DNA of 63,951 bases, the filler included, from Reclinomonas americana ATCC 50394 (lineage: Eukaryota): assembly GCA_048213135.1 (NCBI GenBank). It is 9 parts of 3 records of this genome, joined end to end, with 100 filler letters (N's around TTAATTAATTAA, not from the genome) between each part and the next. Parts side by side here need not be neighbours in the genome. Positions count along the whole stretch, not along the records: positions 28,507 to 44,434 come from PS015616.1; 8 more parts are not named here. One strand, written 5' to 3'. Position numbers and translations under genes: made by a program. Below, piece by piece: positions 20,433 to 47,570 of the stretch (positions within the stretch are counted from its first letter, which is position 1; each line of letters opens with the position of its first letter). The notes under the pieces were generated by a model. That model did not search any database. It was not told the DNA's origin and worked only from the letters and a program-made list of their open reading frames with translations.

Positions 20433-23400
20433 ATGTCAGGCACCACTTGCCGCCACTGTGGTGCCTCCGAGGTGGACCTCAACGAGGCTGGCGAAACTGT
20501 GTGCACACAATGTGGAGAAGTTCAGTCTCTCTCTCAATCTCACTCTTTCTCTTGGTCTCTCTTGTCTCTTTTCACTCATTGTGCATGTGCGTTGTGTAGG
20601 TGTTGTCCACACTGCACTTGGTGCACGATTTGACTGCTCCAAAGGGATCTTTTGTGGGCAATGCACCAAGGTCGAGTGTGAATTCGATGATTGATTCCTC
20701 TGTCTCTCTCCCTACTCTCTGTCTCTTCTCTCTGCCTCTCTCAGTCTCCCCTCTTACTCACCCCTCTCAAGCTCATCTCTCAGTCTCCCCTCTCTCAGTC
20801 TCCCCCTCTCAGTCTTCCCCTCTCTGTCTCTCTCCTCAATCTCTCCTCTCAGTCTCTCTTCTCAGTCTCTCCTCTCAGTCTCTCCTCTCAGTCTCTCCCT
20901 CTGTCTCCCTCACTCAGTCTCCCCCTTCTCACTCTCCCCCTTCTTACTCTCCCCCTTCTTACTCTCCCACTTCTTACTCTCCTCTCAAGCTCATCTCTCA
21001 GTCTCCCCTCTCAGTCTTCCCCCTCTCCGTCTTCCCCCTCTCAGTCTTCCCCCTCTCCGTCTCCTCTCTCACTCTCCCCTCTCAGTCTCTCCTCTCTGTC
21101 TCCTCTCAGTCTTCCCCCTCTCAGTCTTCCCCCTCTCAGTCTCCCTCCTCTCTCAGTCTCCCCCACTCGTCTCTCCCCTCTCACTCTCCCCTCTCACTCT
21201 CCCCTCTCACTCTCCTCTCTCCTCTCTCAGTCTCCTCTCTCAGTCTCCCCCTTCTCAGTCTCCCCCCTCTCAGCTATTCCTTTATAATCTCCTCTCTTCA
21301 TTGTCTCCCTCTCTCACTTCTCACTCTCTCTCTCCCACCGACAGTCAAAACAAAGCCCAAAAGTACGCCCGTCGCGCGGCCATGGAGAGCATTGGCGACG
21401 TCTGCAATCGCCTGCATGCCGAGGCATCGCGCGCCGAAGTCCAGTTCATGGTGTACCACTGTGTAGGTTTGTTTCGCTCATCTTCCTCTCCCCATTTCCC
21501 CTCCACCCACAACTCCTCCCCCTGCCAGACAAATGCTGGACCCGCCGTCGCACCGTGCAAGTCTGCGCCCTCGCCTGCATCTACATTCTCCGACGTGGCT
21601 CGGAAGAACCGCTGACCATTAGCGAATGCGCACGGGCGTTGGACGTGGAGATTCCGGTGCTGGCCGACGCCGTGCGCCAGGTGTGTGGCAAGCTGAAGCG
21701 TCAACTGCCCGACGTCAACCTGGCCGGCCACGTGTCGCGCATGGCCAGTCGCCTCGGCCGTGTGGTCGAGTCGGCGGCCAAGCTGACGGCGGTGATCAAA
21801 ATGGCGCGCCAGGTGCTGCGAGTGGCCATGGATCGCGGCTTGGATTCCGGTCGCCATCCGCTCACTGTGGCGTCGGCGTCGCTGGCCTTTGCCGTGCACG
21901 TGACGGGTGCGGTGCCGGGGGTGCAGACGCAGACGCAGGTGTGCAAGACTGTGTCGGAGCTGGTGGGCCGCGGCTACAGTCAAATGTCCGAGCGGGTGAC
22001 GGAGCTGAAGGAGGCGGTGGTGAGGAAAGGGGAGAAAAGGGGAAAGGGGACAAGGGGGGGAGGTGATCAAGAGGATCTGTGATTCACTGTCTTGTTTCTG
22101 TGGTGGCCGAATGGAGGTTGACACCGGATACCATTTTGCCGATCTTTTCTCATTGTTCTCGTCCATTCCGCGACAGATTTGTCACGATCACGTGCTCTCC
22201 TTTGCTATAATGGGTGCATTCTTTGCTTTCTTTTGAGCTGTTTCTTTATCTGCAGTCTACGCGATCAAGTCGATCTACGACTGTGTCTCCTCTCCTTTTG
22301 TGTGTCAGACTTCTCATGCTCACCATTCCTGTGTGCCTTTCTGTTATAGAGCTTCCCTCCGTCGCTGGTCGATTCTTGTGTAAATTGTTCCATTGTCCCT
22401 TCATCTCGCTTGTAGACTCTAGTCGTCCTGTCTTGCCACATTTCTCTCGCTTTCTGCCGTCCAGTACCTTGATTCCATCCATGTGTTCTTTTCGTCGCAC
22501 TCTCCCCTGTCCTCCAGCTCTTCCCTCGTTTACCAATCACCACACTGCATCTCATTATGCTCCATCCCTCTTTCCCTCTCGTGTGCCTCCATCAGTTTGC
22601 TATGTTCTTGTCCGTCATTCACTCTCTCTCTCTCTCTCTCTCTCCACCTCCTTGTCTGCTTCCTTCTCCTACTCCCTTCCCCTCCCTCTCCCTCATTCCC
22701 CTCCCTTCCCCCTCCCACAGGCCGCCGTCGGTCGCACCCTCCCCGTCTACAAAACCATCAGCGGCCGCGACATCCCCTCCACCGTCGGCTGCGAGCGCGT
22801 GCAGTTCATTCTGCGCCACTACGAGATGCTACAGCAACTCGCGCAGCGACAGGCGGAGCAGAAATCGAGAGAGGAACAAGTTACCTCCACGACGACTGTC
22901 GCCACCACCGCCGAAAGCACACCTGCTCCTGTTCCGCATCCTCCCCCACCTCCTCGCCGACTCCGACGGCGTCAGCGCGACCTGCTTCAGTCGTTGGATC
23001 AACCGAAGTACTTGCGCAAGGAGGAAGCTCGGCGTCGACGTCGAGCTGCACTGCTCGAGGAGGCGGAGCAAGTGCTGCGCAGAATATCCGCAGTCGGAGG
23101 TGACAATGGCGATCGCATTTTGCGCTTGGACAAGCACTTGCAGTCGTATGTGCGACTGCTGCTGTCCGGCGTTCCGCGGACGCTGATTTTGGATGGGTTC
23201 TCGGAGGAGGCGCTGTTGGCGCTCACGGACCCCGCCACGGCGCGGGAGGAGGACAAGAGCGAGGATTTGTCGAGCACGGTGTCTGCGGAAGAGATGCAGA
23301 GAATTCTGCTCGCCAAGCAAGTTGCGCGAATCTCTCTTTCTCTCTCTCATTGTCACTTTCCCTTCTCTCTGTTCCTCCCTTCTTTTCTCTCTTCTCCTCG

Positions 23401-28000: not shown

Positions 28001-28587
28001 CTGGAAAGGGGAAAAGTGGGGAAGAGTGAGGGGAAGCGAGGGGAGGGATAAGAGAGGGGAAGGGAGAAGGATGAGAGGGTTTAGGTGAGGTTTGGTGAAG
28101 GATTAGGTGAGGATGAAGTGCGATAAGTGAGAGTGAGTGTGAGAGAGAGAGAGAGTGGGGGAGTGAGTGCGTGCGAGAGGAGAGAGAGAGCGTGAGTGAG
28201 TGAGTGAGTGAGTGAGTGAGTGAGTGAGTGAAGGAGGCAGCGAGTAAGTGCTCGGAATACATGACTCTCTCCCCTTCTCTCTCCCTCCCTTCTCCTCTCT
28301 CTCTCTCTCTCTCTACTACTACTATACGTACTACTACTATACTAACTTAAGTAACGTTAACTCTACGTACGTCCCTACCTACCTCCGTCCTTCCTCCCTC
28401 CTCCTCNNNNNNNNNNNNNNNNNNNNNNNNNNNNNNNNNNNNNNNNNNNNTTAATTAATTAANNNNNNNNNNNNNNNNNNNNNNNNNNNNNNNNNNNNNN
28501 NNNNNNCGTACCGTACTACGTACCGTCCGTTACGTTACGTACGACACGTAACTACTACTACCTCTCCTCCTCCTCTCTCCTCCCTTC

Positions 28588-28618
<31 letters not shown>

Positions 28619-29114
28619 CCTTTCCCTCTCCCTCCCTCCCTCCCTCCCTCCCTCTGTGTATGTTTCTCCGGACACACACACACACACACCAACAAATCAT
28701 CAGCCGCCGTCGCCTGCAACACAGCCTCGTGATGACTCATTCCAACAGCACAAAAATGCCTCTCACACACTCTGCGCACAAGAAGCAAATCCAACGTCAA
28801 ACCATCACAAAAACAAACAAACAAAGAGGAAAAATTCGTCCGAACCTCACACTCGACAAACACTCACCAAACAGACACTGATGCACTCACTGACTGACTG
28901 ACACACACTGCGCACAAACAACACACGCGCAAATGCACTTGCTCTCTCTCACACACAATGAGCAGCAATGGACAGTTCCGCACGCGCGAGCCGCTCTGTC
29001 CACTTACCGTTACATTTTGCCGCCCTTTTTCTCAAGCTTTGTTGGAGAAAGGAGAGACTCGTTGCGCTCCTTCTTCTCTGTCTGTCTGTCTTGTTTCTTC
29101 TGTTAGAGAGAGAT

Positions 29115-29539
29115 ATGATGGTGCAACGGCGGCAGCTCGTGCTGCTGTTATGTGCCTCGTGTGTGCTGGTGATGATGGCCTCGGTGGCGTTTGGTGGAAA
29201 GATGTTGCGTGATTCCCTTCGCATGTGCTCTTTCACAAGTGTTGCTATGTGTGTGTGCCTTTGTTGAGAGTCTCTCTGTGTGTGATTGTGTGCGTGAGTT
29301 GAGTGCATTCAATTTTTTGGTGGCCAGAGAGACGTTGCATTTTTGCACTTTTTCTCTCTTTTTTTGTCTCTCTGGCGCTCCCTGTTGCGCTTGTTGCGTG
29401 TCATAGATGTCTTTCCTGCCTCGTCTCACACTCTGTGTGTTTGTGTGACCACGGTGCACCAGTCGCTGTTTCTCTGTATCAAGAGTTTCTCTCACACTCG
29501 CCCTCTTTGGGTTGCGTGTGCGTACGTCTCACTATGTCG

Positions 29540-29580
<41 letters not shown>

Positions 29581-32500
29581 TGTGTGCGTCCTCTTCTGTT
29601 TTCCCCCCATTCTCCTTCGGTTGTCCGCCAGTTTGTCACTTTGTTCTCTGTCTCTGTCACTGTCAGTCTCTGCCTCTGTCTCTGAATCCGCCTGTTTGTC
29701 TCTCGTGTACTCGTCTCGCAGGCAGACTTCTATGTAGCCTCTCTCTCTCTCTCTATGTCTCTCAATTTCTCATTCTGATCTCTCTCTGTGCGGATGTGTG
29801 TGTGTATGCCCGTGTCTGTTCGTGGTCCATCTCTCTCTGTGAATCTCTACTCCTCTCCTCGCTTGCCGACGTTGCACACAAAGTATTCGCTCTAGCACGC
29901 ATATTTGCCATGTTGCTCCGTTCCCCCTTGTCCTTCAACATCTAGCACATTCCACATTTGCCTCATGGCGCGGATTCTGAACCCTCTATTGACATTATGT
30001 TCCTCCGTACTCTCCTGCGTCTCGATCTCTCCTCCCTATTCCTTTCTCCTTTTTCTCTCAGTGGTGCATTCTCCCACAGAAAACCTGCAAGCTCGATTCT
30101 CTCTCTCTCTCTTTCATATCTCATCTTGTTTCCTTTCTTTGCCCTCTCCTATTTTCTTGGTGTCCTTGGCCGTCGTCTCTGATTCTTATTCCACTCCCTT
30201 CAGTAATCTTTGCTAAATTCTATTACTCGTATCCCCTCCTGCATCCGTTACTTTCTTCTCTTTCTCCATCCCTTTCCCTTCTTACCTCCCTTCCTCTTCC
30301 CCCTTTCCCTTCTTACTTCCCTTCCCCATCCCTTTCCCTTCTTACCTCCCTTCCCCTCCCGCAGCATCACCTACAACATGTGGTTCGACCGCCTCCCCGT
30401 GCCACGCTCCTACTCGGTGGCCGGGTGGATCCTCACCGACGCTACTGCACCGCTGACCGACGTGCAACTCGTGAGCGGCGCCGGCAGCCAAGACAACGCC
30501 TCCTTTGCCGTCTACCTCAATCAGTGGGTCTACTGCGTGCAATGTGGAGTGCCGACGGCCAGCTTCTTTAGCATTCGTGTGCGGGTCACTGACGGCAGTT
30601 GCGGTTCCGCCTCTTCCTTTTTTCCCCCACCTTCTGCGTGCTGACGAAGACTGTTTTCTTGACCACACACACAGCCGGCTCCTCCTGGGAGGCACCGCTG
30701 ACGATCCCCGTCAACAAGCCACTGACAAACCTGCGCCTGACTGCGACACAGTTCACGTCACCGGCGCCCGTCGGCTCCACCCTCTCCACCATCCTCGTCG
30801 ACAACGACCCCGGTGTCGACCCCGTCGGCTTCTCGATCATGTCACAGACGCCGCCCAACTCGGTGCAGTTGGTGTCTGGCAACGTGCTGCAGGCGGCCAG
30901 TGTGCTCTCCACATCGGTGACGCTGGTCATCCAGGCCACCGAGCGCTCCACCAACATGAGCATCGTTGGAGTGCGTAATGAGACCATGTTTTGCCATGTC
31001 TTCTTTATCTCATGTGATTGCACGCACAGAACTTCACCATCTTCCCCTCTCTCACGATTCGCTTCGTGGCGACTGCCGGCTCGCCGCTGCCGCTCCCACT
31101 GGCGCCGCAGACGGTGGTCGGCTCGCTGTCATCCTCGCTCACTGGACCCGTCGTGTTCACCTTGGGCACCACGAACAGCCCCTTCGTCATTAGCGGGTCC
31201 CAGCTGATTGTTGGCGCGACCGGTATTCTCCAGAGCGCGCAGCCGATTATCTCGGTGACAATCTCGGCGGTGGCCACCAGCACGGGCACCTCGGCACAGG
31301 GCACGGTGCAGCTGCAAGGTGCCGTACACCCACTACCAATCGCGCTCTTTCTTTGATTAATTTTGCACGCACAGTTTCGCTGCCGCCCATCGACATTGTG
31401 ACGACACCGGCAACGCCGTCGCTCTACCTTCCAATCACCTTGCAGTCAGTGGTGGCGCAATTGACGGCCGTGCCCGCGGCGGCAGTGCAAAACGCGCTGC
31501 TCTTGTCGCTCGTGTCGCAGACGCCGGCGGGCATTGTGAGCCTGTCGGGCAACTCGCTCATTCTGTCGGGCACACCCAACGGTGTGCAGTCGGTGTCGGT
31601 GGTGGTGCGTGCCACGGACACGGTGACCAAGGCCTACTTCAACAAGACTCTGTCGTTGCCGGTGGTGTCGGGTGAGTGGGCGGGAGGGGGGGCGAAGGGG
31701 GCGAAGGGGGGAAAAGGGGGAAGGGATGAAGAAGCATTCATCTTTATTCTTCTTCATGTCTTCATGTCCGTTTTTCTTTCTCTCTCTCTCTCTCTCTCTA
31801 TCCGTCGTTCACGATGTCGATTCTGCTCTCTCGTGACTATCTTGTTTATGCCTCGTCTTGCGGGATTTGTCGATTTCTGTGTTGTTGTCAGGGTCTGCTT
31901 TCATCTTTGTTATATCTTGCTTCCTCCATGATGCCACAGCTGCTCAGACTCTTCAAACACTATCTCCTACTTTCGCTTTCTCACTTGTATCTCAGTGTGG
32001 TCGCATTGTGACTGCTCATTTATATCTCATACTTTCATGATAGCTTTCGCATTTTGCCAAATCTTTCCGTCCCTTTCTCACTCTCGCCCCTTTCTCATGG
32101 CCTCCAGATACATACCGTGTTGTGCTCTCTTGTTCACTGCAGATAGTTGGTCGTTTCCGTCTCTTCGATTTCTATCTTGCAAGCACACATCAATTTGTTG
32201 CTCCTCCTTTTATCCGTATTGTCTCCTTCCCTCTCTTTTCTCTTTTTGCATCTCTACTCTTTCCCTCTTATCTCTGCATCTCTTGCCTCTCGATCTCTCT
32301 CCTTTCCGTTTGGTTTCTCTTCTCGTCCATTTCTCTCCTGTCTCACCGTCTCTTCCTTTTCCCTTTGTCTCTCGTTCTCTTCTGTTACAGCCATCTCTGT
32401 CCCTCCTCCTTGCCTTTTGTTGCTTCCATTTCCCTTTGTTCCCTCTTGTCTCATCCTCCCCCCTCCACACAGCCCCTCCCGCCCCCACCCGCGTCAACTG

Positions 32501-35500
32501 CCAGGAGACGATGATCCCCTCGCCGCTGCCGAGCGGTGCGACGGCCTGCACTCTGGTCTCTGACGTGACCAGCAACATCTCCTTCCAGCTCGTGTCGCAA
32601 CAGCCGACTGGCTCAGTTTCCCTCTCCGGCAACAAGCTGGTGGTGGTCGGCGCCCTGAGCAGCATTGCGTCGCCGATCACGGTAACGGTGCGAGCCATCG
32701 AGTCGCTGCGCATGCAGTTTGTCGAGCGGTCGTTTGTGTTGCCGATTGGTGCGTGAATTTCACCGTCAATTGCGTTGAATGACAAGCTTCCTCTAAACTT
32801 GTCGCTTGCCGCAGGCACTCTGGCCAACCTGCAAATCACCTTGGCCACCACGCGCATGGTGCTTCCGGCCTCTGCTGGCGCTCTGGTCGGCACGCTGACC
32901 GTCGACACAGGTGCACCGGCCAGCGCCGTGCTGTTCACCGTGCAGGATTCGCCCAGCTTCTTCGCCATTGGCCAGGGCAACAAACTGGTGGTGGCCAGCG
33001 GTGGTCTCCCCCCGCAGGTTGTCTCGACGCTGTCGGTGACGGTGCAGGCCAGCATCAGCGGCACCACTGTCACCTCGCGCATGCTGTTCGTTGTTGGAGG
33101 TGAGTGCATCGGTGATGAAGAGACAACTCACCGGTCTCGCTCAAGGGCGACGACTCTTCATATCCCTTGGCTTATCTGCAATTCTTTCCTTGTTGTTTCC
33201 GACTCTCGTTCTCACGATTTCCTCCGGTGCATAACACAGCTGTCACTCCTTTTTTGCTTGTTGTCAGCATTCATTCTCTATTCTTTCCATTCATTATGAC
33301 GTCCTCTTTCTCTGCTGTTCCTCTCTACTTGCCGACCTGGACTCTACTCTTTGTTTTCACGAGTACGTAACACACCTGCAATCTGTTTTTTTCGCGCTCT
33401 GAGTGTCACTCTATTCTTTTCTTATTTCTCATCTCTCACTCCTGTTATTCGTCCTTGTTGAAACGGTTTCTCTTCGCCTGCCTGCATAACACCTGTCAGC
33501 TCTGCTCTCTTGTGCTCTCTATCGCTCTGCGCCCTTCTCTTCCCATAGCATCTCTTCACTCGCTCTCAATTAATTGCGATACTTTCTCATCGTTTGGTTT
33601 GCTTCTTCATTTTTCCTTTCTCCTTCAAGTGCATATTACTTTGGAAAGCACGTGCTCTCCAGTTGCTTTCTTCTCCTCTCTTAGCTCATTCTGTTTCGTT
33701 AAAGTGTCACCTATTTTCTCCAGTTTTCAACCTTGCTTTTTATCTCCTTTCCCCTCTCACCTCCCTTCCCCCTTCCCCCTTCCCCTCTCACCTCCCTTCC
33801 CCCTTCCCCCTTTCCCCTTTCCCCTTCAGTAAACAACCCCCCCCGCGACATCACCGGCGTCCTGGACCCCATCACCATCCCGCTGCCGGCAGCTTCGACC
33901 CTCTCCCTCGGCACCCTCACCATTGTCGACGACGCCGTCGACGTTGCCACGGACAAGCTGAGCATTGTGTCGCAGACACCGGCCGACGTGCTGCGCCTTA
34001 ACGGCAACACTGTGGAGGTGCAAAAGGCGCCGCCGAGTGGCACCCTGACGGTGCAGCTCACGGTGCAGGCGTCGGATCCGCTGACCGGTGCCGCCGTCAC
34101 ACGGTCGTTCCTGGTGGCTGTCGGTGAGCACTCAAACCTCAGATCATCGTCTTTCTTTTCATCCTCACTCACTTGTCCTCCTCACTCAGTCGACTCCTCG
34201 GCGGGAGAGACGGTGGCGCTGTCGGTCAGCGAAATCGCCGTGCCGATTGCCGACAAGTCCGTCATTGGCTTCGTGTCGGTGTCCGGCAGCGCCGGCCTGG
34301 CGTACACCTTTACGCTGCTGTCGCAGACGCCCGGCAACCTCTTCTCGCTGGCCTCAACCCAGCTGATGGTCAGCAATCTGTCCGCCGCCCCGTTCCCGAT
34401 GCAGGGTTCGGTGACGATTCAGGCCACCAAGACCTCCACCGGCGCCATTATCAACAAGTCGTTTGTCATTCTGTTCGACGACACCACCAAGCCGACGTCC
34501 AACACACTCACACTGTCGCTGAGTGGTGCTGGCACGTACCCGGTGCCGGCCACTGCCGGCGCGCAGATCGGCTCCGTGTCGGTCACCAATGCCAGCAAAG
34601 CCCCATACCTCTATCGCATCCTGTACCAGCGTCCGGTCGGCGCGTTTGCGATATCCAACACGACTGGTGCGCTGACGGTTGCACGCGCTGTCGCCGGCCG
34701 TGTCGGCCTGCGAGTGCGTGTCACCGATGCCAACGGGGCCGTCGGCGAAGCCGATTTCCTTGTGAGCGAAGGTCTGTCATCCATTCTCGCGCCTGCTTCA
34801 TTCACCAACTCATTCTTCTCGCACAGCACCCACCGCACCCGCCGCAATTGTCTACGCCATTGACGACCCACCGCTGCAGCTCCCGTTGCTGCCTGGCCAG
34901 CGCCTCCTCGGCCTCACCACCACCGATGCCAACTCGAACGAGAAGTTCACTTACTCACTGGCTTCGGGTGCTGGCTCCACGCACAACAGCCTGTTCATTG
35001 TGGACAGCGACGGTCTCTTTGTGACGGTCACTGGCGGCACCGGCATCCCCTCCGGCTCCATCACGTCGCCGATGCAGCTGCGCGTGCGTGTGACTGACCG
35101 CGACGGCCTGTGGTTGGAGCAGGCCCTGTCGCTCCCGTTCATCGATCCCACATTGTCGGGTCGCAAGACTCCCACCGACATCACTGTCAAGCCAACCACG
35201 TACCCCATCAATCCGCCTGCCGGTTTCTTTGTCGGCTCGCTCACTGCTGTTGGACTGGCCCCCACCGACACGGCAACATTCACCATTCGTGGCCAGTTCC
35301 CTGAGACCGCCGTCAAGCTCTCGCCGCAAGACAATGCCTCGCTGATCATTGATCAGCCGCCGTTCGGTGACTTGTCGATCAACTTCCGTGCCACCATCGA
35401 CAATGGCGGTGGCCGTCTGGACAAGATCCTGACCATCAAGGAGCTGCCGCTGACCAACACCACCACTCCGACTGCGCCGCTGGATTTGCGCCTCAAGTTG

Positions 35501-38500
35501 CTCTCCTATCCGCGCCCACTGCCGTTGCCCATTGCCGGCGGTTCGATTGTCGGCAGTCTGATCCCGGTGGACCCGAATTTCTTCGACACCTTCCTGTGCG
35601 CTCTCGTGGGCGGCGACGGCAGCAACGACAACAATTTGTTCCAGGTGTCCGACACCACGGTGCATGCCGCCGCCGGCCAGTGGCTGAGCAGCGGTCGCCA
35701 ATCGCCGCTGCACATTCGTGTGCGGTGCACCGACAGCGCCAGCTTCACTATCGAGAAGCAGTTTGCCATTCCCAGTTTCGTATAGGGCTGGAATATGAGA
35801 GAGTGCCGCTACGTTATTAACTCACGTCGCATGCCTGCAGTCAACAATGCGCCTACGGACATTTTGCTGTCGACAGTCGAGTACTGGGTGAGTAGCAGGG
35901 AATGGATCGACATGAGATGCATTCTGTGGCACACACGCTGACTGACCTGGATGTTCTTTTCCGCATAGTACCCGGCCGTCAAAGACTCCATCATTGGCAA
36001 ACTCACTGCAGTGGACGAGCCTGGCGATCAGCACACATTCACCATTCAGAGTCAGTCTCCGGCCAACTCTGTGGTGCTCAGTGGCCCCAACGGCAATCTG
36101 CTTTCAGTCTTTATGCCGCCGGCCAATCGTGTTCCCTTGCAACTCGTCATTCGAGGCACCGACAAGGGCAACGGAATGGTGCGTGTGTGACGAGGGCGCC
36201 AAGCTTTCGTTTTTTTTTTTGCAGGACTGCTGAAGATGACGTGTGCGTGTCTGCAGTACGTGGACCGTGCATTCCGCTTGCTGCCGGTGGGTGGTGTCGA
36301 CTATGTGCCACCCGGCGGCGACATCAGCGCCAGCTCCAAGTGCGATCCGAAAGTCCAATGCGTTGCGTGTGTTTCATCTCGTTTTTTTCCTCTGCACCTC
36401 GCTTTGCCCTGACAACAAACACCTGCAGAACGGCAATGGCTCGTGCGGTCTCGGCGCGCTCAGTCCCACCAAGTGCCAGTGCAATGCCGGCTGGTTTGGC
36501 GACAAGTGCGAGCGAGCCTGCGGCGAGTTCGATGTGTGCGTCGGTGGCTGCCGCGTCAACTCACGACTGGAGAAGGGCGCGCCTGACAAGTTTGGACGCA
36601 CCACGTGGACTCTGTATCGGTGCGAGCAGCCGTTCCGCATCTATGGTGCCGTCACCGACAATCCAGTGGCCCTTGATTATTTGTCTCGGTGAGGGAGAGG
36701 GAGGGAGAAAGGGAAAGGGAGGGGGAGGGGAAAGGGTAAGGGAGAAGGGAGATAGCATGGTGAAGAAGAGCAAGAGAGAGCGAGCTGAGTGGAGCAGAGG
36801 GTTAACAGAGACGATAATCAGCTGTGTTTACGGAGATGAAGAAGCAAATCGAGAGGAAATGCTGTGAAGCAGGAAGAGAGAGAGGGAGGAAAGAGCATGG
36901 CATAGGTGGGTGTGTTGACAGGAAATGCGACCAGAAAGATAGCACAAGCAAAAGAGCAAGGGAATGGTTATCAGAGACGATAATGAGCTTTGTTTGTGGA
37001 GCTCATCATCCCTCTTTCATTGCAGTTCCGGTGGCAACACCATTCGTCTGTACGATCCGGACCAGCTGGCTGGCACGCCGAACATTCTCGACATTGCGCA
37101 GAGTTTCGGTCTCTCCGTGGTCATTGGCTTGAAGATGCAGCCGGAGAAGATTCCCGATCGGTTCCCTGCCTTCAACTGTTGCGTAGAGCCCGTGTTCTCG
37201 GCTTCTACATGGCAAGTGCTCAGCAACTCATGCGCCTGTGCGCAGACACCACCGGAAGCCCGTATGAGGATCAGCAAGACGAGCTGGCCATTGGCGTCGT
37301 GAAGCGCTGGAAGTACCACCCCGCAGTTTCGTCGGTGTCACTCACAGTCTTTTTTGCTGCGAATCCTTACACACTGTCGCGCAGCTGCTGGCGTGGAATG
37401 TTGGCAATGAGGTGCAATGTGACATGTCATGCGTATATCTCCCAGTGTGCAAGATCACTCACTTTATTGTTACAGATGGAGCTGTGGACCGATGCGTCGG
37501 AGCACAGTCGTGTCTTCAAGGCCGTGGAGCGTTTGGCTGCCATGGTCAAGACCGAGGACCCGTCGCACGTGACCCTGACTTCAACAGTCACTGCCAAGGT
37601 GACACCGGAGCTGAAGGTTTGTTGGTAGGGAAAGGGAGAGAGTGGAAGAGGGGAGGGATTCTTTGGAGAGGAGACAGTGGGAGAGTGAGGATGAGAGAGA
37701 AGGGAGGAGAGCAAATGTGGAAGGGAGAGCGTGAAGTAGGAAGTGCTTGGAAAGTAAAGATGAAAGAGAAGGGGGAAGAGAGTGAGGACATTTGTTGATA
37801 GCGGTTAGGGAGAGGGTGTAGTAGGTTGTGCTTTCTTGGAGAGCAGACAGCGGGAGAGTGAGGATGAGAGAGAAGGGAAGAGAGCGAGTATGTCTGTTGA
37901 TAGCGGAAGGGAGAGGGTGTGGTAGGATGTGCTTTCCTGGAGAGGAGACAGTGAGAGAGTGAGGAACAGGGCACAGAGAGCGAGTGGACTACATGTTTGC
38001 GCACCTGCTTACTTGGCGTGCGTGTGCGCAGGATTCTCTACCACACATTGACATTATCGGTCGCAAGTTTCGTTCCATTGTCGGCGTGCATCATCGTAGT
38101 TGTCCACTCAAGCAACAATGTGTGTGCACAGTGCTTTCGGCCTCGCTCCCGACTTGCTGTTCACGCTCGATGCGTGGGGCTACGAGGGTGCCTACATGCT
38201 CACTGAATGTTTCGTGCACGTCGCCTCTTGTCGCCAGTCTCTCTTTCTGCACCACTCATCCATCGTATCTTGCGCAGTTGGCGTGCCCGGTTGGTGGGGC
38301 GGCGAGACCGACTTTGTTGAGTGCCAAGCGCGCCACCTGCAGTCATCCTATGGCATCGCTAACTGACCATGATTCTTTGTGACTTGCAGACCACGTGGGG
38401 ATCCCCGATTGAAGGCAGCTCGCGCGACAAGGCCGAATGGGTGTGTGACCGCAAATGTGAGCGTTCAGCACTTGTCCACTCTCCTCACCACAACTCCTGC

Positions 38501-40601
38501 AGGCTTGGAGAACGTACCAGACGACACGTTTCGACGCCAGAATTCTCGGCTCGTTCCACTTTATCTGGTGTGTGTGTGTGTTAGAGAGAGTCTGTGTGTT
38601 TGTGTTTGTGTTGGTGCGCCTCTGTGTGTGTGTGTGTGTGTGCGTGTGTGTGCGTGTGTGTCTGTGTGTGTCAGTGTGTTTTTCTCCCGCAGCCTTTGTC
38701 TGCCGTGTCTGCCTCTCGGTCTCCCAACCTTCTCCACCTGCTCTCCTCACTCTCCCACAACAGGGATGCGTACTACGATAACATGGCCACCTTCACGTGG
38801 TATTCGGGACTGATTGCACCGGAAATCGCCAGCGGCTACCCGCGCACGCAGCCTCTCGACGCCATCCGCTCGTTGTGGCTCGAGGATCAGAAGCTTCTGT
38901 GGGATTTTGCCGGCACGTGGACATCAGCACCCGTGCTGTGGTATGTGCCGATCACGGCACCGACACTGGCGCGCAACAAGGTCGACCCGCTGTCGCAGCA
39001 CACAGTCGACGGATGGGTTGACTCGTTCGATGTGCGCTGCGGTCCGCTGCGCTTCTCGTGGCAGGTGCGCACCGACGGTTCGCACGGCGACGACACGGCC
39101 GTGTCAAAGTGGCCCGACGATTTCACTGTCGTGCCGGTGGGCGAGGACAATCATCACCGTGTGACGTTCTTGGTGCCGTCGCGGCCGTGGAAGTATCGGT
39201 GAGGAAACGGGGAAAGGGAGAGGGGAAAGGGAGGGAGGAGGGAAAGGGAAAGGAGAAGGGGGAGAGAGAGAGCGAACGGTGCAGTGTAGTGAAGCAGGGA
39301 AAGCAGAACATGAGCGAATGCAGTTAGAGGACCAGAAATGTGGTGCAGATTATGATGGGACGCATTGCACTGGCACATGCGCGAGGGAACAAAAGTTGAA
39401 GGAAAGTTTTTGCAGGGAGGTACTAGTGCGCTGATTTAGAGGAGTGCTGAAATATTGAGGGCAGCGGAGAGTGGCTTGAAAACAGATCAGTTTTCTTTGT
39501 CGCTGTGGAGTGCAGGCGAAAGACAGGCAGACTTCTGCGCTTCGCATTCCTGTATACAAGCGTTCTCCTAGCGCAACATGACAGTCTGTCTTTTGTCTTG
39601 TGCATGCCACGTTGCAGTCATCTTCCTTTGCACTCTCCCTTCGGAGATTATAGTGCTGTTTATTGTCTTGTGCATATCACTTTGCCTTCATACTCTTCAT
39701 GTGGAATTGCAGTGCTGTCTCTTTTGCATGTCACGTTGCACTCATCGTTCTCACTCTCCATGTGCTCTTTACTGTCGTTTGCATGTCATTTTGTCTTCTT
39801 ACTCTTCGTGGAAACTGCAGTGCTGTCTCTTGTCTTGTGCACGCCATGTTGCCGCCGTCGTCCATCACACTCTCCCTGTGGAGATTGTAGTGCTGTCTCT
39901 CACTCTCCTTTTGTGCGCCACTACACTGCGAGCGAAAGACTGCAGTGCTCTCTCTCTCTCTCCTTTTGTGCGCCACAATGCTTCCTGCGAAAGATGGCAG
40001 TGCTCTCTCTTGCCCTCGCAACTTTGCAGTCATCCTCTTTCCCGCTCCTCTCTTCTTTGCATGCTACTTCACTCTGCACCTTATTCAATATGGAGAAGTT
40101 GACGTGCTCGCTCGAGCATGTCATATCCCATTCGCGCTTCATGGGTGCTCTCTCCCTCTCTCTCTCCCCACCTTCCTGTCACTGAGGCCTCTCATCAGCT
40201 GGCAGCCGTTCTTCAGTGCGGTTATCAGCGACCTAGATGGCCAAGATCAATCTGCTCTTACTCACTCCATACCAAGCCAATGATGTGCTCTATCGTGGAT
40301 ACTTGGCACTATACGGGGGCAACATTTTTCTCTCCTCTTTCTTTTTCTCTTTCTCCCTCGCACACTCTTGTCCGTTGCTGACATGCGTTCTGCACGCAGC
40401 CTGTACATGTACGTGCTGGACTCGTGCAACAATGGCGCCGTGGCGAACGTGCCGTTCTATGTCAATGGCGTGCAAGACGACACGCAGGGTGGCACCAAGG
40501 TTCAGTGTGGGAGTCATGCGAGGTGTGTGTGTGGGTGTGATTGTTGTGCACTCATGATGGAGTGTGTGCAGGAGGTTACGATCGGCACGGCACACGGTTG
40601 A
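29115..40601 (+). CDS. Secreted ~1,800-aa protein: signal peptide, ~13 cadherin-like repeats, EGF-like domain, clan GH-A glycoside hydrolase, C-terminal Ig-like domain; about 26 exons
   Basis: Signal exon 29115-29203. Repeats include NNAPTDILLS, FTYSLASGAGSTHNSLF, LVGGDGSNDNNLFQV and IRVRCTD..EKQFAI. EGF motif KCQCNAGWFGDKCE. GH motifs GGNTIRLYD, KYHPALLAWNVGNE, GAYMLTEFG, TTWGSPIEGSSRDKA, LGSFHFIW and YRLYMYVLDSCNNGAVANVPFYV. All junctions are GT-AG and in frame. Confidence 0.85.
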
Positions 40602-40984
40602 CCGGAGAGGTGGAAGCGATTTCAAGTTATGCGATTACTTACAATATAATCTTTTGCGGTTTGTCTGTCACTGGAGTGGGGGAGAAGAAGAAGGGCGAGA
40701 TGGAGAGGGTGTTGGAGTGGGTTGAGGAGAGAGAGACAGGCAGACAAGGAGTACTGTTCATGTTAGGAGAGAGTGAGTTGCTACTCGTTCGTCATCAGTT
40801 GAGCCACCACACAACATAATTCGGATCCGGAAGAGTAGTTCTGTGTGTTGCACGTGTCGAGCGCGTTGTTCGACATCTGTGGCTCGTTTCCCGAAACAAT
40901 CGGGCTTGCCGGATTTCATTTGTGTCAGGTATTGACAGGACGGACAGCATACAATTTGTTGTCTGTTGCCCACTTAGCGAGCAA

Positions 40985-43114
40985 ATGATAGTCAAGGCGA
41001 TTTACACGCCAAAGCGTGGAGAGCCGGGTTTGCCACTCAGCAAAGGTACTATTGCCTGTCATGGTGGTGGTGTTTGTGAGCTGATGATGACATGCATTCT
41101 TCCGCGACAGTGTTCGTATTTTTCAAAAAGGCCACGACTGGAGCGTGGGCACCAGTGCGACCTGTCGCAGAGTACGAGTGTGATCAAGTTGAAAGAGTCA
41201 AGAAGCTGCGGTACGTGCCAGGAAAGCAGCGCTGGCAAGTCAAGTTAAATTTGGAGTTTGGAGATTATCACATCGGGGTGTGTGTGTATGTGTGCTGGCT
41301 TGTCTGCAGCCCCTTGAATGAGATGCTGATGTGTTGATGTACGCGCAGTTCTATGTGGTCGATCAGGCTGGTCATCACGAGTGGCGAGTAAGTGCGGCGC
41401 ACGACGTAGTCGACGACGAGCAGCTTAAGTGTCAAGTCAATCGCATTCCTGTTCGTGAGCCCCGGCAGTCACCAGATGAGGAGTATCGGATGCGACTCAC
41501 AGCACAGCACGAGAGAGACGAACTGGCGGTTGCCGTTGACGACCTCCGCGAATGTTTGGAGACGATGCGCCAACAACACGAGAAGCAACTAGACGATGCC
41601 GAGAACACCATCAAGCTGCTCACAATCGACCTTCACAACATGCAATGCATCAACGAGCAGCTGCAAGCGCAGCTTTCGGAGCTTCGCGGTGAGGCCTGCC
41701 GAGCGGCGGCAGCGGACGAATATATCGAGCGACTCAAGGCACAGGTTGTCACGTTGGAGACGCGACTTGCCGCAGCCGAGGAGATGGCGGAGGAGGAGGC
41801 TGTACGAGCGGATGAGCAGCGGCGTCTGCTCGAAGAGACACAAGCAGAGTGCAAGGCCTTGGACGAGCGCGTCACCACACTCCGCAGCACAGTGGAACAG
41901 CTCAACAAGGACAAGCAGGTGCTCGAAGACGCAGCCGCCAAGAACAAAAAAGTACTGGAGGAGCGTGGCGCTGTGCTCCTGTGTGCGATGGAGCGGCTGA
42001 TTCGCCTCGACTTTTACGCGGACGTGGATCTCAATCGTTGGCGGTCATGCACCGCTGACCAGGACTCCGGCGTCCACGACAACTGCGAGCAAACTCTGCG
42101 AGAGGTACTTCAAGCAGCGGGCAAGGAGCTTGCCCGAGTGAAGGCGGAAGCGGAAACGAGTTGGGTGCCACTGGTGGAGGGAGCAGTCAATCTGTGCGAA
42201 ATGGCGTACGGTTGCGGTGAGGCGGAGCCAGGCACAGATATGACAACGCGCGTGGATTACCTCCTTCGATATCTACACCACGACATCGTTGTGGCCACTG
42301 TTGAATTCCAGGAAGAGCTTCTTGGACGGCCGTCGGCAGACAACCGCGACAAGAGCATGCTCGAACGACTGGGTGAGTGCAAGCGCGGTCTTTCGGAGCT
42401 GGCGGCGCGCGACCGAGCACGACAAGCGCGAGAGGAAGCCGAGTCGGCTTCGTCACTGCCAGCAGTTCCACTCTTCGTGGCACGAGCCGGGGGTGCCGCT
42501 GATCGTGAGCGGCGTGTGTTCCCCTCCGTTAAGGTGATCAACGGCGCCGCAGCTGGTCAATCGTCGCCTGCGTTCGATGCCGTCAAGGTGCAGCTTGCCA
42601 TGCGGCACGGCAGCAGCGTTGGCTGGGACTGGAGCGGCGGTGCAGCCGGTGCCGGTCCGGCTGTCGGCGTGATGCTGGTGCAAGATGTTGTCGGCCGTGG
42701 TGCCATTGACGCTGCGACGATTGCAAGTGTCGCGGCGGAGAAGAACGGTGAGCTTGAGTGCCTTCTCGACAGGGTGGCTGTCTGTCTGTCTGTGTGCTGA
42801 CCACGACGCACAGTGAACCTCATGGACGGACGATCGACGCTGGTTCTCATGGTGGACGAAGCACACGTGGCGTCCCTTGTACCAGCGGCGCGTGCAGCAC
42901 TGGTGCCAGCGGTGGTGTCGACGCAGGAGGACTTGTTCTTTGTGGTGTTGAAGACAGTGAACCAGCAGGGTGAGTGGCACACGCAGCGCAGTGCGTGGGT
43001 CAGAAGGTTGACTGACTCGATCCACACCACACAATTGCAGGCAAACTGGCACTTGCACTCACTGAACACGGCAGCATGGCGGTGCGCGAGGTGGTCAACT
43101 GGTTTGCAAAGTGA
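40985..43114 (+). CDS. Protein with N-terminal CBM48/AMPK-beta-like glucan-binding domain, long coiled coil and C-terminal alpha/beta domain
   Basis: Spliced N-terminus ...RWQVKLNLEFGDYHIG|FYVVDQAGHHEWRVSAAHDVVDDEQLKCQVNRIPV matches the W...L.L..G.Y...F.VD..W......N.I.V pattern. Heptad-rich region ~41480-41980. The last two exons end ...VREVVNWFAK*. Confidence 0.72.
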
Positions 43115-43608
43115 CGGCTGGCAGCAGGCGAACTAAACACGAACATTCACTGCCATCTCAGCTTGTCACGAGTACGTTGCATGAAACGAGTGATAGAATA
43201 TCTTGGCATGCAACATTCTCTTGGAATGTACCCTCACTCTTCCTTGACCACCCATGTGTTGAAAGGCTCAGCTCATCCAGCTTGTCACGTTGCAGCACGA
43301 AGTGCAACTTGGCAGCTGCCTCAATGATCTGTATCCACGCTCTTCCACTCTCTCTCTCTCTCCCTCGACCACCCCCATGTATTGACCAGGGGTTTGCTTC
43401 ATCACCGAAATGCCACAAGTCGTCCATCATGGCCGTTTGCTTGTGTGTTACCCGCTTCAACTTGCGTCAGGTGTTTCCAAATTTGGCAGTGATTCAGGCG
43501 CGAGCCGCGCACAAAACAATTGGACAAAGATTTTATCCGGTCGGCGCGCGCGCAAGGCGGTGATCATAGAGAGAGGGTTTAGAGTAGAAAAGAAAGAGAG
43601 AGACACAC

Positions 43609-44434
43609 ATGAGCCGCCTCAGCGTGCGATTGCTGCTGGCGGGCGGTGCTGCAGCCATCGCAGCGATTGCATTGTACATGCTGTGGCGCATGCGCCGTCG
43701 GAGGCGATCACCTGCGGCCATCACCTCTGCAACCACTGTCACCGCCTCGTCCACGACAACAACAACAACAACAACAGCAGTGAGCGGCACACAGCCACCA
43801 GCAGCACATGTGGCCTCCTCCACTGCCACTGCCACTGCCGCTGCCCCGCTGTCATCATCATCGGCTCCCTCCACCAAGCCACGCTCCAGCTCGCCTCCTG
43901 CGCACCCGAGTCAGCTCCCAGTGGCGCCAGTGGCGAAGAAACGTGCGTCTGTGTCGTGGGAGGGAGTGAGCATGGCGAGAGCGAGATGACTGACCGACTC
44001 TCTCACACACGCACACAGCCGCGGCGGCAGTATCAGCAGCATCGTCGGCGGCCTCGAGCGCCTCATCGACTCCGCCTCCACGTGAGAGCCTGCGTGGATC
44101 GCCAACTCCGCCACCAGCATCCTCGTTGCCGGCGCACATGATGACAGAGGGTCGCCGCGCGTCGCTTCCCATGGCCATGCCGACGCAGCCGCCACCGCCG
44201 CCCTTCAAGGCCTCATCTCCGCCATCGCGCGCCAGTGGCGGAGGCAGCGGTAACAGCCACGGTCGATCATCGTCGATTGACTCGCCACTGCGCTCGCCGG
44301 CTTCGTCGGCGTCGTCGTCATCAAGTCCGCTGGCGGCAACTGCGGCTGCTGCGGCGGCGGCGGCGGCGAGTGGAGGCGGTGGTTTGTCACGCAACTCGCC
44401 ACTGGCGGCCTCGTTCCGACGTCGCGTGGTGGCG
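43609..44434 (+). CDS. 5' part of N-terminally membrane-anchored, S/P/A-rich protein; truncated by gap
   Basis: MSRLSVRLLLAGGAAAIAAIALYMLWRMRRRRR is a hydrophobic anchor with a basic flank. Intron 43943-44018 keeps the frame. Confidence 0.6.
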
Positions 44435-45466: not shown

Positions 45467-45902
45467 GACTCTGCGGAAGGGGAGAGGGTGGAGAGGGGAA
45501 GGATGAGGGAGAGAGGGAGAGAGGGAGAGCGGAGAGGTGCGTGCGTGCGGAATTTACCTTTTGTGTCGGGGATTTGCAGGTGGCGCGCGGAGGAAGGGCC
45601 TTGCGTGGTGGGTGGGTGGGTGGTGTATGAGAGTGGCGTGTGGTGGAAGTGTCAAGGGAACGAGTCTGTAAGCGCGTGGCGGCTCCCGCGAGTGTAGAAT
45701 CGAACAACGCACGGAAAGAGCGCGAGCGCGCTACGGTTTACGGTCTACACAAATTTGGGAGGGGGTGGAAAAGGGAAAGGGTGGGTGAAGGAGGGAGAGG
45801 GTGAAGGAGAGAGGGGGGGAGAATGTAAGGGTCGTGTTGCTTCTGCTTGGATATGGGTGCAAAGGAGGAACGAGATCAAGCAATTTCATTCAGTGGAATT
45901 CG

Positions 45903-47570
45903 ATCAATCAATCATGCAATCGGAGAATCGTCTTCCTCACCTTCCCTCGGCCCCGCACGCCCTTCTCGCCAGCGCTCCCTCTCGACATGCTCCACAGGAA
46001 GCGGCTCGCTCGCACCAGCGACGATGAACACTCGCGGACGCGACTTCCGCACCTGTTTCGACGCCTTTTTCCACATTCCCCGCGGCCTCCGTCGCGCCAC
46101 CAGTGTCGATGACTTCGTCGCCTTTCTGCAGCAGTGTCTGGGCGCGCAGGTTGCCACACAGAACCACTTGTTTCGGGACTTGTGTTGTTGTAAGCGTTTC
46201 GAATTACGCGGACCGCGCGGCAAGCTGTCCTCTGTCCGGATTCATTGATTCACTCGACAATCAATCATGCAATCGGAGAGCGCATCGTCTTCCTCACCCT
46301 CTCTGGGCCCCGCACGCCCTTCCCGTCAACGCTCCTTGTCCACATGCTCCACAGGAAGCGGCTCGCTCGCACCAGCCACCATGAACACGCGTGGACGCGA
46401 CTTTCGCACCTGTTTCGATGCCTTCTTCCACATTCCCCGCGGCCTCCGTCGCGCCACCAGTGTCTGATGAATTCGTCGCCTTTCTGCAGCAGTGTCTGGG
46501 CGCGCAGGTTGCCACACAGAACCACTTGTTTCGGGACTTGTGTTGTTGTAAGCGTTTCGAATTACGCGGACCGCGCGGCAAGCTGTCCTCTGTCCGGATT
46601 CATTCATCGATCAATCATGCAATCGGAGAGCGCATCGTCTTCCTCGCCCTCTCTGGGCCCAGCGCGCCCTTCACGCCAGCGCTCCCTCTCGACATGCTCC
46701 ACAGGTAGTGGCTCGCTCGCACCAGCCACGATGAACACTCGTGGACGCGACTTCCGCACTTGTTTCGACGCCTTCTTCCACGTTCCTCGCGGCCTCCGTC
46801 GCGCCACCAGTGTCTGATGAATTCGTCGCCTTTCTGCAGCAGTGTCTGGGCGCACAGGTTGCCACGCAGAACCACCTGCTTCGGGGACTTGTGTTGTTAG
46901 CGTTTCGAATTACGCGGACCGCGCGGCAAGCTGTCCTCTGTCCGGATTCATTCATCGATCAATCATGCAATCGGAGAGCGCATCGTCTTCCTCGCCCTCT
47001 CTGGGCCCCGCTCGCCCTTCTCGCCAGCGCTCCCTCTCGACATGCTCCACAGGCAGCGGCTCGCTCGCACCCGCCACGATGAACACGCGTGGACGCGACT
47101 TTCGCACCTGTTTCGATGCCTTCTTCCACGTCCCTCGCGGCCTCCGTCGCGCGACCAGTGTCGATGAATTCGTCGCCTTTCTGCAGCAGTGTCTGGGCGC
47201 GCAGGTTGCCACGCAGAACCACTTGTTTCGGGACTTTTCGAATTGCGTGAACCGCGAGGCAAGCTGTCCTCTGTCCGGATTCATTCATCGATCAATCATG
47301 CAATCGGAGAGCGCATCGTCTTCCTCGCCCTCTCTGGGCCCAGCGCGCCCTTCACGCCAGCGCTCCCTCTCGACATGCTCCACAGGTAGTGGCTCGCTCG
47401 CACCAGCCACGATGAACACTCGTGGACGCGACTTTCGCACCTGTTTCGACGCCTTCTTCCACGTTCCTCGCGGCCTCCGTCGCGCCACCAGTGTCGATGA
47501 ATTCGTCGCCTTTCTGCAGCAGTGTCTGGGCGCACAGGTTGCCACGCAGAACCACCTGTTTCGGGACTTG
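45903..47570 (+). repeat. Five-copy ~350-bp tandem array of the 5' end of the EF-hand gene
   Basis: TCAATCATGCAATCGGAGA with ATGs at 45914, 46267, 46617, 46965 and 47298 (spacing 353, 350, 348, 333). The copies are near-identical. Confidence 0.95.

What the first reader, a model, noticed from the sequence alone, without database searches (positions are those of the whole stretch)
29115..40601. Giant secreted cadherin-stalk/EGF/glycoside hydrolase fusion with bacterial-looking modules
Seen: signal peptide, ~13 cadherin-like repeats, one EGF, then a TIM barrel with both clan GH-A glutamates (VGNE, LTEFG) and a terminal Ig-like domain. No C-terminal TM helix is visible. From recall, the motifs TWGSPIE.SS.DKA and YRLY.YV.D...N.A.ANVPF.V belong to bacterial GH2-like/GH158 (beta-1,3-glucanase) proteins. 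The LV.G.GS.DN..F repeats resemble bacterial adhesin cadherin repeats rather than animal cadherins. Inference: a horizontally acquired glycanase on a long adhesive stalk, possibly for binding and digesting prey or algal glucan. I do not know of this architecture in eukaryotes.
Basis: partly seen in the sequence, partly recalled or inferred. Interest (0 to 1): 0.75.

Follow-up and report, generated by a model that had tools for sequence, protein, structure and literature searches.

The report
Bacterial-type glucanase on protist cadherin stalk
An intron-rich gene of an unidentified single-celled eukaryote puts a sugar-cutting enzyme that I found only in bacteria (family GH158) at the far end of a stalk of 13 cadherin-shaped domains; its sugar-binding pocket is changed, so what it cuts is still open.

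Summary
Confirmed. Bases 29115-40601 (+) form one reading frame of 26 exons and 1813 residues in gap-free sequence: secretion signal, 13 cadherin-fold repeats, a six-cysteine EGF, and a complete GH158 module. The GH158 match spans profile positions 42-432 of 433 at E 1e-78, with the catalytic Asn-Glu and Glu intact. The 'terminal Ig' is part of GH158 itself.

Laminarinase activity is therefore only about even odds.

I found no eukaryotic GH158 and no protein of this build. The searches were weak for eukaryotes; no own genome was held and no RNA run was listed. The enzyme carries 11 introns and sits on a long branch with no donor resolved, so the gain looks old.

Earlier scan notes describe many such stalks with other tips in this genome, but no GH158 tip.

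The parts
29115..29203 (+). Exon 1: start codon and N-terminal hydrophobic segment (secretion signal, or uncleaved signal anchor)
   Evidence: Hydropathy peak 2.69 in the window starting at residue 8; donor 29204 scores above the in-phase alternative 29189
30365..36295 (+). Stalk of 13 cadherin-fold repeats (R1-R13, residues about 30-1295), exons 2-13
   Evidence: Leave-one-out profile test; coordinates; repeat profile hits cadherins in PDB; folds
30365..30712 (+). Repeat R1, keeps the bacterial LVSG.GS.DN..F loop
   Evidence: 43 bits on a profile of bacterial-type repeats
31377..34123 (+). Repeats R4-R7, about one repeat per exon (297, 276, 285, 294 nt) with phase-1 introns on both sides; diverged SQTP-type loop
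   Evidence: Exon table; R7 model matches protocadherin at Z 10.7, rmsd 2.4, 94 aligned
34835..35773 (+). Repeats R10-R12 in exon 10; R10 and R12 keep the bacterial loop
   Evidence: 52 and 59 bits on the bacterial-type profile; phmmer of this exon finds 2423 proteins at E<=0.001
36341..36509 (+). EGF-like module, C1311-C1344, split by intron 13 (donor 36362, acceptor 36428)
   Evidence: Six cysteines after donor correction; Pfam EGF_Teneurin E 0.001 for the exon-14 part
36600..40466 (+). Complete GH158 module (TIM barrel plus its Ig domain), residues 1375-1793, exons 14-25, 11 introns
   Evidence: 250 bits, E 1.2e-78, profile positions 42-432 of 433; reference protein L025 hits 9ORO and 6PAL; intron count
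37406..37411 (+). Asn1489-Glu1490: acid/base motif at the end of the 27-nt exon 17
   Evidence: Aligned to N142/E143 of GH158(Pro) through L025
38205..38207 (+). Glu1574: catalytic nucleophile
   Evidence: Aligned to E229 of GH158(Pro)
38560..38803 (+). Strand-8 substrate loop F1624-Y1639 (spans intron 23): F278, W280 and Y291 equivalents kept; Lys283 position is Tyr1629, Glu285 position is Asp1631; loop two residues longer than usual
   Evidence: Column counts over 165 bacterial-type domains; positions
40467..40601 (+). Short polar tail and stop codon (exons 25-26); no membrane helix or GPI-like hydrophobic end
   Evidence: Translation and hydropathy

Best explanation
One eukaryotic gene makes a protein that enters the secretory pathway and carries a GH158 retaining glycosidase about 55-60 nm beyond its N-terminus, on a calcium-independent spacer of 13 cadherin-fold domains and one EGF. 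The length uses about 4.5 nm per domain, recalled. The enzyme most likely cuts beta-1,3-linked glucan or a close relative (algal storage glucan, fungal or algal wall glucan) outside the cell or in a food vacuole, by double displacement with E1490 as acid/base and E1574 as nucleophile. The stalk gives reach or holds the enzyme on a surface or matrix. History: the GH158 gene came from bacteria long ago, filled with introns, and was joined by exon shuffling to a stalk module already common in the host genome. Shown: reading frame, domain order, family, catalytic residues, fold of two repeats, loss of calcium motifs. Inferred: expression as one mRNA, secretion, activity, substrate, stalk role, bacterial origin and order of events.
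For: Frame and splice signals. Full-length GH158 match; 54 of 68 columns conserved in at least 90% of 66 bacterial proteins are kept. N/E/E and the aromatics W236, F278, Y291 are kept, and W77 is Tyr, as in 10 of 165 other domains. All three characterised GH158 enzymes I read about act on beta-1,3-glucan or carboxymethyl-curdlan. GC at third positions is 0.81 in the stalk and 0.75 in the GH, with 11 introns inside the GH, so it is a long-resident coding gene. Phase-1 introns at repeat ends. Bacterial precedent for cadherin plus beta-1,3-glucanase: S. degradans Lam81A, LPB/CAD/GH81/FN3/FN3 (PMC2386152, passage), and P0088.
Against: The Lys283/Glu285 loop is rebuilt: Lys in 141 of 165 and Glu in 145 of 165 other domains, Tyr and Asp here; loop length 14 against 12 in 152 of 165. 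Glu285Ala loses more than 99.8% of activity in GH158(Pro) (supplement passage). Identity to any bacterial GH158 is at most 34%, and the branch is long with no supported sister. The splice model is mine and has no transcript behind it. The N-terminal segment could be an uncleaved anchor.
Confidence: 0.52

Rival explanations
1. Same gene and location, but the rebuilt loop has changed the job. The tip cuts another beta-glycan, or cuts slowly and mainly grips beta-glucan, so the protein is a prey-capture or matrix-binding fibre with a glycosidase-derived tip.
For: Lys283 to Tyr, Glu285 to Asp and a two-residue insertion; Glu285 is near essential in GH158(Pro). Earlier unchecked notes describe catalytically dead GH135 barrels in surface proteins of this genome.
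Against: Both catalytic glutamates and the asparagine are kept despite 66% divergence. Asp1631 could take over from Glu285. Some bacterial GH158 domains also vary in this loop: 20 of 165 lack Glu there.
Confidence: 0.3
2. The N-terminal hydrophobic segment is not cleaved. The protein is a type II membrane ectoenzyme, anchored at its N-terminus with the glycosidase at the outer tip. This changes the location, not the chemistry, and overlaps with the best explanation.
For: Hydropathy 2.69 over 19 residues behind two arginines, no other anchor, and enzyme at the end farthest from it.
Against: The segment has the layout of a cleavable signal: basic start, about 14 hydrophobic residues, then small residues S-V-A-F-G (read from the sequence; rule recalled, no predictor run).
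Confidence: 0.25
3. The GH158 module is not a gain of this lineage but is shared by a wider group of protists that my searches could not see, perhaps already with the stalk.
For: Long branch, no donor clade, 11 introns. Earlier notes mention the same repeat type in euglenid secreted proteins (unchecked). The homologue search depends on shared exact words and scored only part of the candidates.
Against: No eukaryotic-looking GH158 among 89 long fusions. No relative of exon 24 in the protein collection or in metagenome contigs. No match to an intron-flanked motif pattern in metagenomes. No GH158 in 7 supplementary files of the Diplonema genome paper.
Confidence: 0.3
4. Two neighbouring genes (a stalk gene and a GH gene) that my model joins wrongly.
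For: No transcript data. Introns 1, 5, 7 and 24 are 730-1201 nt and could hide ends.
Against: The introns between R13, EGF and GH are 81, 78 and 67 nt, too short for a gene end plus promoter. EGF and GH start lie in one exon. The GH half has no signal peptide of its own. The corrected junction completes the EGF.
Confidence: 0.05

Closest known systems
Glycoside hydrolase family 158: GH158(Pro) (PDB 9ORO, 9P25; PMC13195107) and BuGH158 (PDB 6PAL; PMC7157763)
   Same: TIM barrel plus C-terminal Ig domain over the full length; Asn-Glu acid/base and Glu nucleophile; W236, F278, Y291 equivalents.
   Different: Spliced eukaryotic gene; at most 34% identity to sampled members; Lys283/Glu285 loop rebuilt; enzyme at the C-terminal end of a 1300-residue stalk with an EGF. 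Most sampled bacterial members are single modules of about 430 aa.
Bacterial glycanases with cadherin-like modules: S. degradans Lam81A (LPB/CAD/GH81/FN3/FN3); GH158 fusions P0088 (Big_9, Cadherin_4, Cadherin_5) and P0066/P0067 (Cadherin_3, T9SS tail)
   Same: A beta-1,3-glucanase-type domain and cadherin-like domains in one secreted chain.
   Different: Few repeats; in P0088 and P0066 they follow the enzyme; no EGF; none of the 89 long GH158 fusions aligns to this stalk.
Bacterial 'cadherin domain-containing' surface proteins (Pfam PF00028 arrays with SLH, T9SS, RTX or dockerin parts; e.g. WP_236344901.1 Paenibacillus plantiphilus, WP_075063244.1 Ornatilinea apprima)
   Same: Same repeat type; R1, R10 and R12 score 43-59 bits on their profile.
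   Different: Calcium motifs lost here (for example DxD in 2 of 13 repeats against 276 of 300); ten repeats have drifted to 7-23 bits; none of the 150 listed hits carries GH158 or the EGF motif.
Animal and choanoflagellate cadherins
   Same: Cadherin fold (R7 model, Z 10.7 to protocadherin gamma A4) and an EGF after the repeats (that arrangement in Fat, Celsr and choanoflagellate cadherins is recalled).
   Different: No membrane helix or cytoplasmic tail after the repeats, no calcium linkers, weaker sequence match (best domain shown 18 bits, against 52 for bacterial-type repeats), enzyme tip.
GH2 TIM-barrel domain (Pfam PF02836)
   Same: Clan GH-A motifs; databases label bacterial GH158 proteins with this Pfam.
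   Different: The reference protein hits GH2 structures at E about 1e-6 against 1e-104 for GH158; the window protein matches only the GH158 part of the GH2-GH158 fusion P0011; no N-terminal GH2 sugar-binding domains.

Membership tests
GH158 | Full-length sequence similarity to characterised members, well above similarity to neighbouring families | tested here: met
   E 1.2e-78 over profile positions 42-432 of 433; profile members tied to 9ORO and 6PAL through L025. The profile set was picked by a motif taken from the window, but the match extends over the whole domain.
GH158 | TIM barrel followed by an eight-stranded Ig domain | tested here: met
   By alignment through the C-terminal YRL...N.PF motif. 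The spliced domain was not folded.
GH158 | Asn-Glu acid/base after strand 4 and Glu nucleophile after strand 7 | tested here: met
   N1489, E1490, E1574; defined in PMC7157763 and PMC13195107
GH158 | Aromatic platform W77, W236, F278, Y291 (GH158(Pro) numbering) | tested here: met
   Y1413, W1581, F1624, Y1639; the first is Tyr rather than Trp
GH158 | Lys283 and Glu285 contacts to the -1/-2 sugars | tested here: not met
   Tyr1629 and Asp1631 in a loop two residues longer. These are not universal in the family (141 and 145 of 165), so this lowers 'works as a laminarinase' more than membership.
GH158 | Arg104-Asp382 tunnel salt bridge of the processive subgroup | tested here: inconclusive
   Lys1445 at the Arg position; the Asp column aligns to Asp1736 but to an Ala two residues later
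GH158 | [quoted passage not shown] | not testable with these tools
   Needs an assay
GH2 | Similarity to GH2 barrels and N-terminal sugar-binding/Ig domains | tested here: not met
   No match to the GH2 part of P0011 at domain E<0.05; one GH2 sequence only, so a narrow test
Cadherin repeat (Pfam PF00028, bacterial type) | Cadherin beta-sandwich fold | tested here: met
   R7 model pLDDT 86, Z 10.7, all 50 listed rows cadherins; R12 model pLDDT 88, listed Foldseek rows all cadherins but E only 0.011. 2 of 13 repeats folded.
Cadherin repeat (Pfam PF00028, bacterial type) | Pfam gathering score | tested here: not met
   Best single-exon score 13 bits against a cut-off of 28.8; whole spliced protein not scanned
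Cadherin repeat (Pfam PF00028, bacterial type) | Calcium-binding linker motifs | tested here: not met
   Window repeats against 300 bacterial-type domains: N-terminal xE[ND] 0 of 13 vs 259; DxD 2 vs 276; LDYE-like 0 vs 149; [DN]xN[ED] 1 vs 272
Animal-type cadherin adhesion receptor | Membrane helix and cytoplasmic tail after the repeats | tested here: not met
   No hydrophobic segment after residue 475; frame ends at 40601
EGF-like domain | Six cysteines with the C-x-C-x-x-G-W-x-G-x-x-C end | tested here: met
   C1311, C1317, C1323, C1333, C1335, C1344; depends on the donor at 36362

The most novel reading that the evidence does not exclude
This is the first eukaryotic GH158, old enough to hold 11 introns, with a rebuilt substrate loop that gives a new specificity or glucan-gripping behaviour. 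It is one tip in a protist-wide toolkit in which exon-shuffled, calcium-free cadherin stalks of bacterial type display interchangeable bacterial or phage-derived heads, a eukaryotic counterpart of bacterial fibrillar adhesins used to catch or digest glucan-walled prey at a distance from the cell.
Probability: 0.3. Interest if true: 0.72.

Novelty: new variant of a known kind. Interest (0 to 1): 0.52.

Why it matters
GH158 was defined in 2019 and, in everything I could see, is described only from bacteria and microbiomes. A spliced, long-resident copy in a protist widens the family's range. It also supplies a natural variant at the very residue (Glu285) that a 2026 structural study found nearly essential, which makes the structure-function question directly testable with one recombinant domain. 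Beta-1,3-glucans are a large carbon pool, and how protists attack them is poorly mapped. The interest is limited by three things: bacterial CAZyme genes in protists are common, cadherin-glucanase fusions exist in bacteria, and the stalk seems to be a stock part in this genome.

Tried and rejected
Data not available:
- No RNA holder was listed for 30360-39250, so no reads could be laid.
- No own genome is held, so paralogues could not be searched.

Searches that found nothing useful:
- Single GH exons found nothing useful in PDB, plasmids (chance-level hits only), the protein collection (0 of 144 candidates), the Atlas or Pfam.
- Viral contigs gave no GH158 by motif or with L025 (0 of 26 stretches), so no viral vector was seen.
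- Metagenome contigs gave no relative of exon 24 (0 of 68) and no intron-flanked motif.
- The euglenid repeat relatives named in earlier notes did not appear in my profile search (17 hits among the 8000 candidates scored; none named as a eukaryote, domains bacterial-type, most unnamed). That search is too weak to contradict them.

Models rejected:
- An alignment of one bacterial protein with twelve exon pieces was misaligned and not used.
- My first exon-13 donor (36353) was rejected: it leaves five EGF cysteines and scores lower than 36362.
- Alternative splicing around exons 23/24 to restore the usual WGQKQE loop was considered; in-phase donors only lengthen the loop.
- Read-through into the downstream gene is formally possible in frame but was judged unlikely (see noticed in passing).

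Trees: two trees (71 rows; 47 rows after dropping 24 long, fragmentary or near-duplicate rows) named no donor.
Full report
**The gene.** The window is eukaryotic DNA: intron-rich, with simple repeats, and cut into pieces by eight N-flanked TTAATTAATTAA linkers. The finding lies wholly within one piece without gaps, 28507-44434. I built the gene model by hand from the three-frame translation. It has 26 exons from the ATG at 29115 to the stop at 40601, all 25 introns are GT..AG, and the frame has no stop. Of the 25 acceptors 24 are CAG, and 22 have a branch-like YTNAY upstream, against 142 of 522 other AGs. Ten of 25 donors began GTT in that count, a donor style that an earlier unchecked note reports for this genome. 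One donor needed correction: 36362 scores better than 36353 and supplies the missing EGF cysteine, giving 1813 residues. No RNA run was listed, so the model is untested by transcripts.

**One gene or two.** The introns between the last repeat, the EGF and the enzyme are 81, 78 and 67 nt. The second half of the EGF and the first strands of the barrel share exon 14, and the enzyme half has no signal peptide. I put two separate genes at about 5%.

**The stalk.** Residues about 30-1295 hold 13 repeats of 88-108 residues. Each is recovered by a profile of the other twelve at 12-53 bits, and none of 200 shuffles reaches that score. Exons 5-8 carry about one repeat each between phase-1 introns, exon 9 carries two and exon 10 three, the pattern left by exon duplication.

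Two repeats were folded. R7 (pLDDT 86) matches protocadherin gamma A4 at Z 10.7, rmsd 2.4 over 94 residues, and all 50 listed rows are cadherins. R12 (pLDDT 88) returns only cadherins in the rows listed, though at E 0.011.

In sequence the repeats are nearest to bacterial-type cadherin repeats. Exon 10 finds 2423 proteins at E<=0.001, of which 150 were listed. All 16 of the 150 that I scanned carry PF00028, several with SLH, T9SS, RTX or dockerin parts. Two of nine looked up are named, from Paenibacillus and Ornatilinea. None of the 150 has GH158, the EGF motif or more than 1.5% cysteine. For most of them bacterial origin is inferred from their domains, not shown. The repeat profile scores up to 52 bits on one such domain against 18 bits for the best animal domain in the two alignments shown; the bacterial set was itself selected with the window's sequence, so this contrast is inflated.

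The calcium motifs are almost all gone, so calcium-dependent cadherin adhesion is unlikely. A spacer role is the simplest reading. Direct polysaccharide binding is possible: PMC7326809 (passage) cites Fraiberg et al. 2011 for that in bacterial cadherin domains, a paper I did not read.

**The enzyme.** Single exons found nothing. The spliced protein matches all 114 of their reading frames, best L025 from Balneola at E 3e-50 over about 420 residues. L025 hits GH158(Pro) (9ORO) at E 2e-104 and BuGH158 (6PAL) at 3e-88, and GH2 structures at about 1e-6. A profile of 66 complete proteins matches residues 1375-1793 at 250 bits over positions 42-432 of 433, including the Ig domain, which both structure papers describe as part of GH158 (PMC13195107, abstract, passages and Results parts 1-2 of 3; PMC7157763, passages and section 7 part 1 of 2). 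Of 68 columns conserved in at least 90% of the 66, 54 are kept. Mapped through L025 to GH158(Pro) numbering, N142/E143, E229, W236, F278 and Y291 are identical and W77 is Tyr.

**The result against the simple reading.** The loop between W280 and Y291, WGQKQE in most members, reads WDAYYDNM here. Among 165 other domains Lys283 is kept in 141 and Glu285 in 145, and the stretch is 12 residues in 152, 13 in 12 and 14 in one; here it is 14 with Tyr and Asp at those positions. In GH158(Pro) Glu285 holds O4 and O6 of the -1 glucose and Glu285Ala loses more than 99.8% of activity (supplement passage). I found no other splice choice that restores the loop. Asp1631 may stand in, or specificity has moved. 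The tunnel salt bridge cannot be judged: Lys at the Arg104 position, and an alignment-dependent partner.

**Origin.** Identity to any sampled GH158 is at most 34%. In two trees (71 rows; 47 rows after 24 were dropped) the sequence has the longest branch among complete domains and no supported sister, so no donor can be named. The enzyme part has 11 introns in about 420 codons, the stalk 11 in about 1270, and both have high third-position GC. The gene is therefore neither contamination nor a recent arrival.

I found no eukaryotic relative. The 89 long GH158 fusions (796-2270 aa, from 6844 candidates) look bacterial where named or read, and none aligns to the stalk. The searches with exon 24, with the diverged repeats and with an intron-flanked motif gave no eukaryote. 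These searches need shared exact words or near identity and are weak for a sequence this divergent.

**In print.** A whole-word search for GH158 gave 38 papers. I saw all as listings and read passages of six (PMC13195107, PMC7157763, PMC6442616, PMC8861581, PMC8254974, bioRxiv 10.64898/2026.07.25.740686); none names a eukaryotic gene, the last placing GH158 in termite symbionts. The seven held supplements of the Diplonema genome paper have no GH158 (PMC10161547); its text (passages) and a choanoflagellate paper (PMC7971027, passages) show that bacterial CAZymes in protists are common. Searches pairing cadherin with glycoside hydrolase or protist groups showed no such fusion in their listings. 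The CAZy listing itself and subscription papers were not searchable, and bioRxiv supplements were closed. Bacterial precedents for the pairing exist: Lam81A of S. degradans (PMC2386152, passage) and P0088, P0066 and P0067.

**Context from the scan.** Earlier unchecked notes describe many giant genes in this genome with the same calcium-free, bacterial-type stalk and different heads (NHL, phage-like tip, polycystin-like anchor), an EGF-lipoxygenase, and dead GH135 barrels. I could not test them, having no genome. They agree with my own repeat results, and they moved my reading from 'enzyme and stalk acquired together' to 'old bacterial enzyme grafted onto a resident stalk'.

**Verdict.** The most likely function is a stalked, extracellular beta-1,3-glucan hydrolase (0.52), with changed specificity or a gripping role close behind (0.3). 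It is a new variant of known kinds: a known enzyme family in a new domain of life as far as I could see, on a known type of stalk, in an order I did not find elsewhere.

Noticed in passing
window 4856, 18782, 28451, 44479, 49515, 55859, 58965, 62860: Eight TTAATTAATTAA linkers between runs of 44 N: the window is a string of joined pieces, so genes across these points need not be neighbours. The first 50 bases after 28506 look like pyrosequencing noise (by eye).
   Followed up: partly
window 40985-43113 (+): Next gene: short N-terminal beta-rich part that by eye resembles an AMPK-beta-type glycogen-binding module (recalled; single-frame Pfam scans gave no hit), followed by a long coiled coil.
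   Followed up: partly
window 40597-40985 (+): A formal in-frame splice path runs from a GT inside exon 26 through 40799-40928 into the next gene (traced by eye). The bridging piece has third-position GC 0.50 and a Cys/Ser/Arg-rich translation, so it is more likely untranslated leader.
   Followed up: partly
window 45900-47570: Five to six tandem copies of a unit of about 330 bases with small differences, seen by eye.
   Followed up: no
window 17740-18300 and 21500-22050 (+): STE20-like protein kinase exon (Pfam Pkinase E 1e-38) and a TFIIB-repeat gene (E 7e-4), ordinary eukaryotic genes on other pieces of the window.
   Followed up: partly
window 58469-58969 and 61446-62585 (+): Two WD40-like genes begin with nearly the same sequence on either side of a linker: a recent duplicate or an assembly repeat.
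   Followed up: no
proteins P0001-P0010: Bacterial-type proteins with two GH158 domains in tandem; the first domain is very divergent and in eight of ten has a wholly different strand-8 loop.
   Followed up: partly
proteins P0012, P0016-P0019, P0037, P0064: GH158 fused behind a sugar-porter (MFS) transporter in several unrelated records; real fusion or read-through not checked.
   Followed up: no
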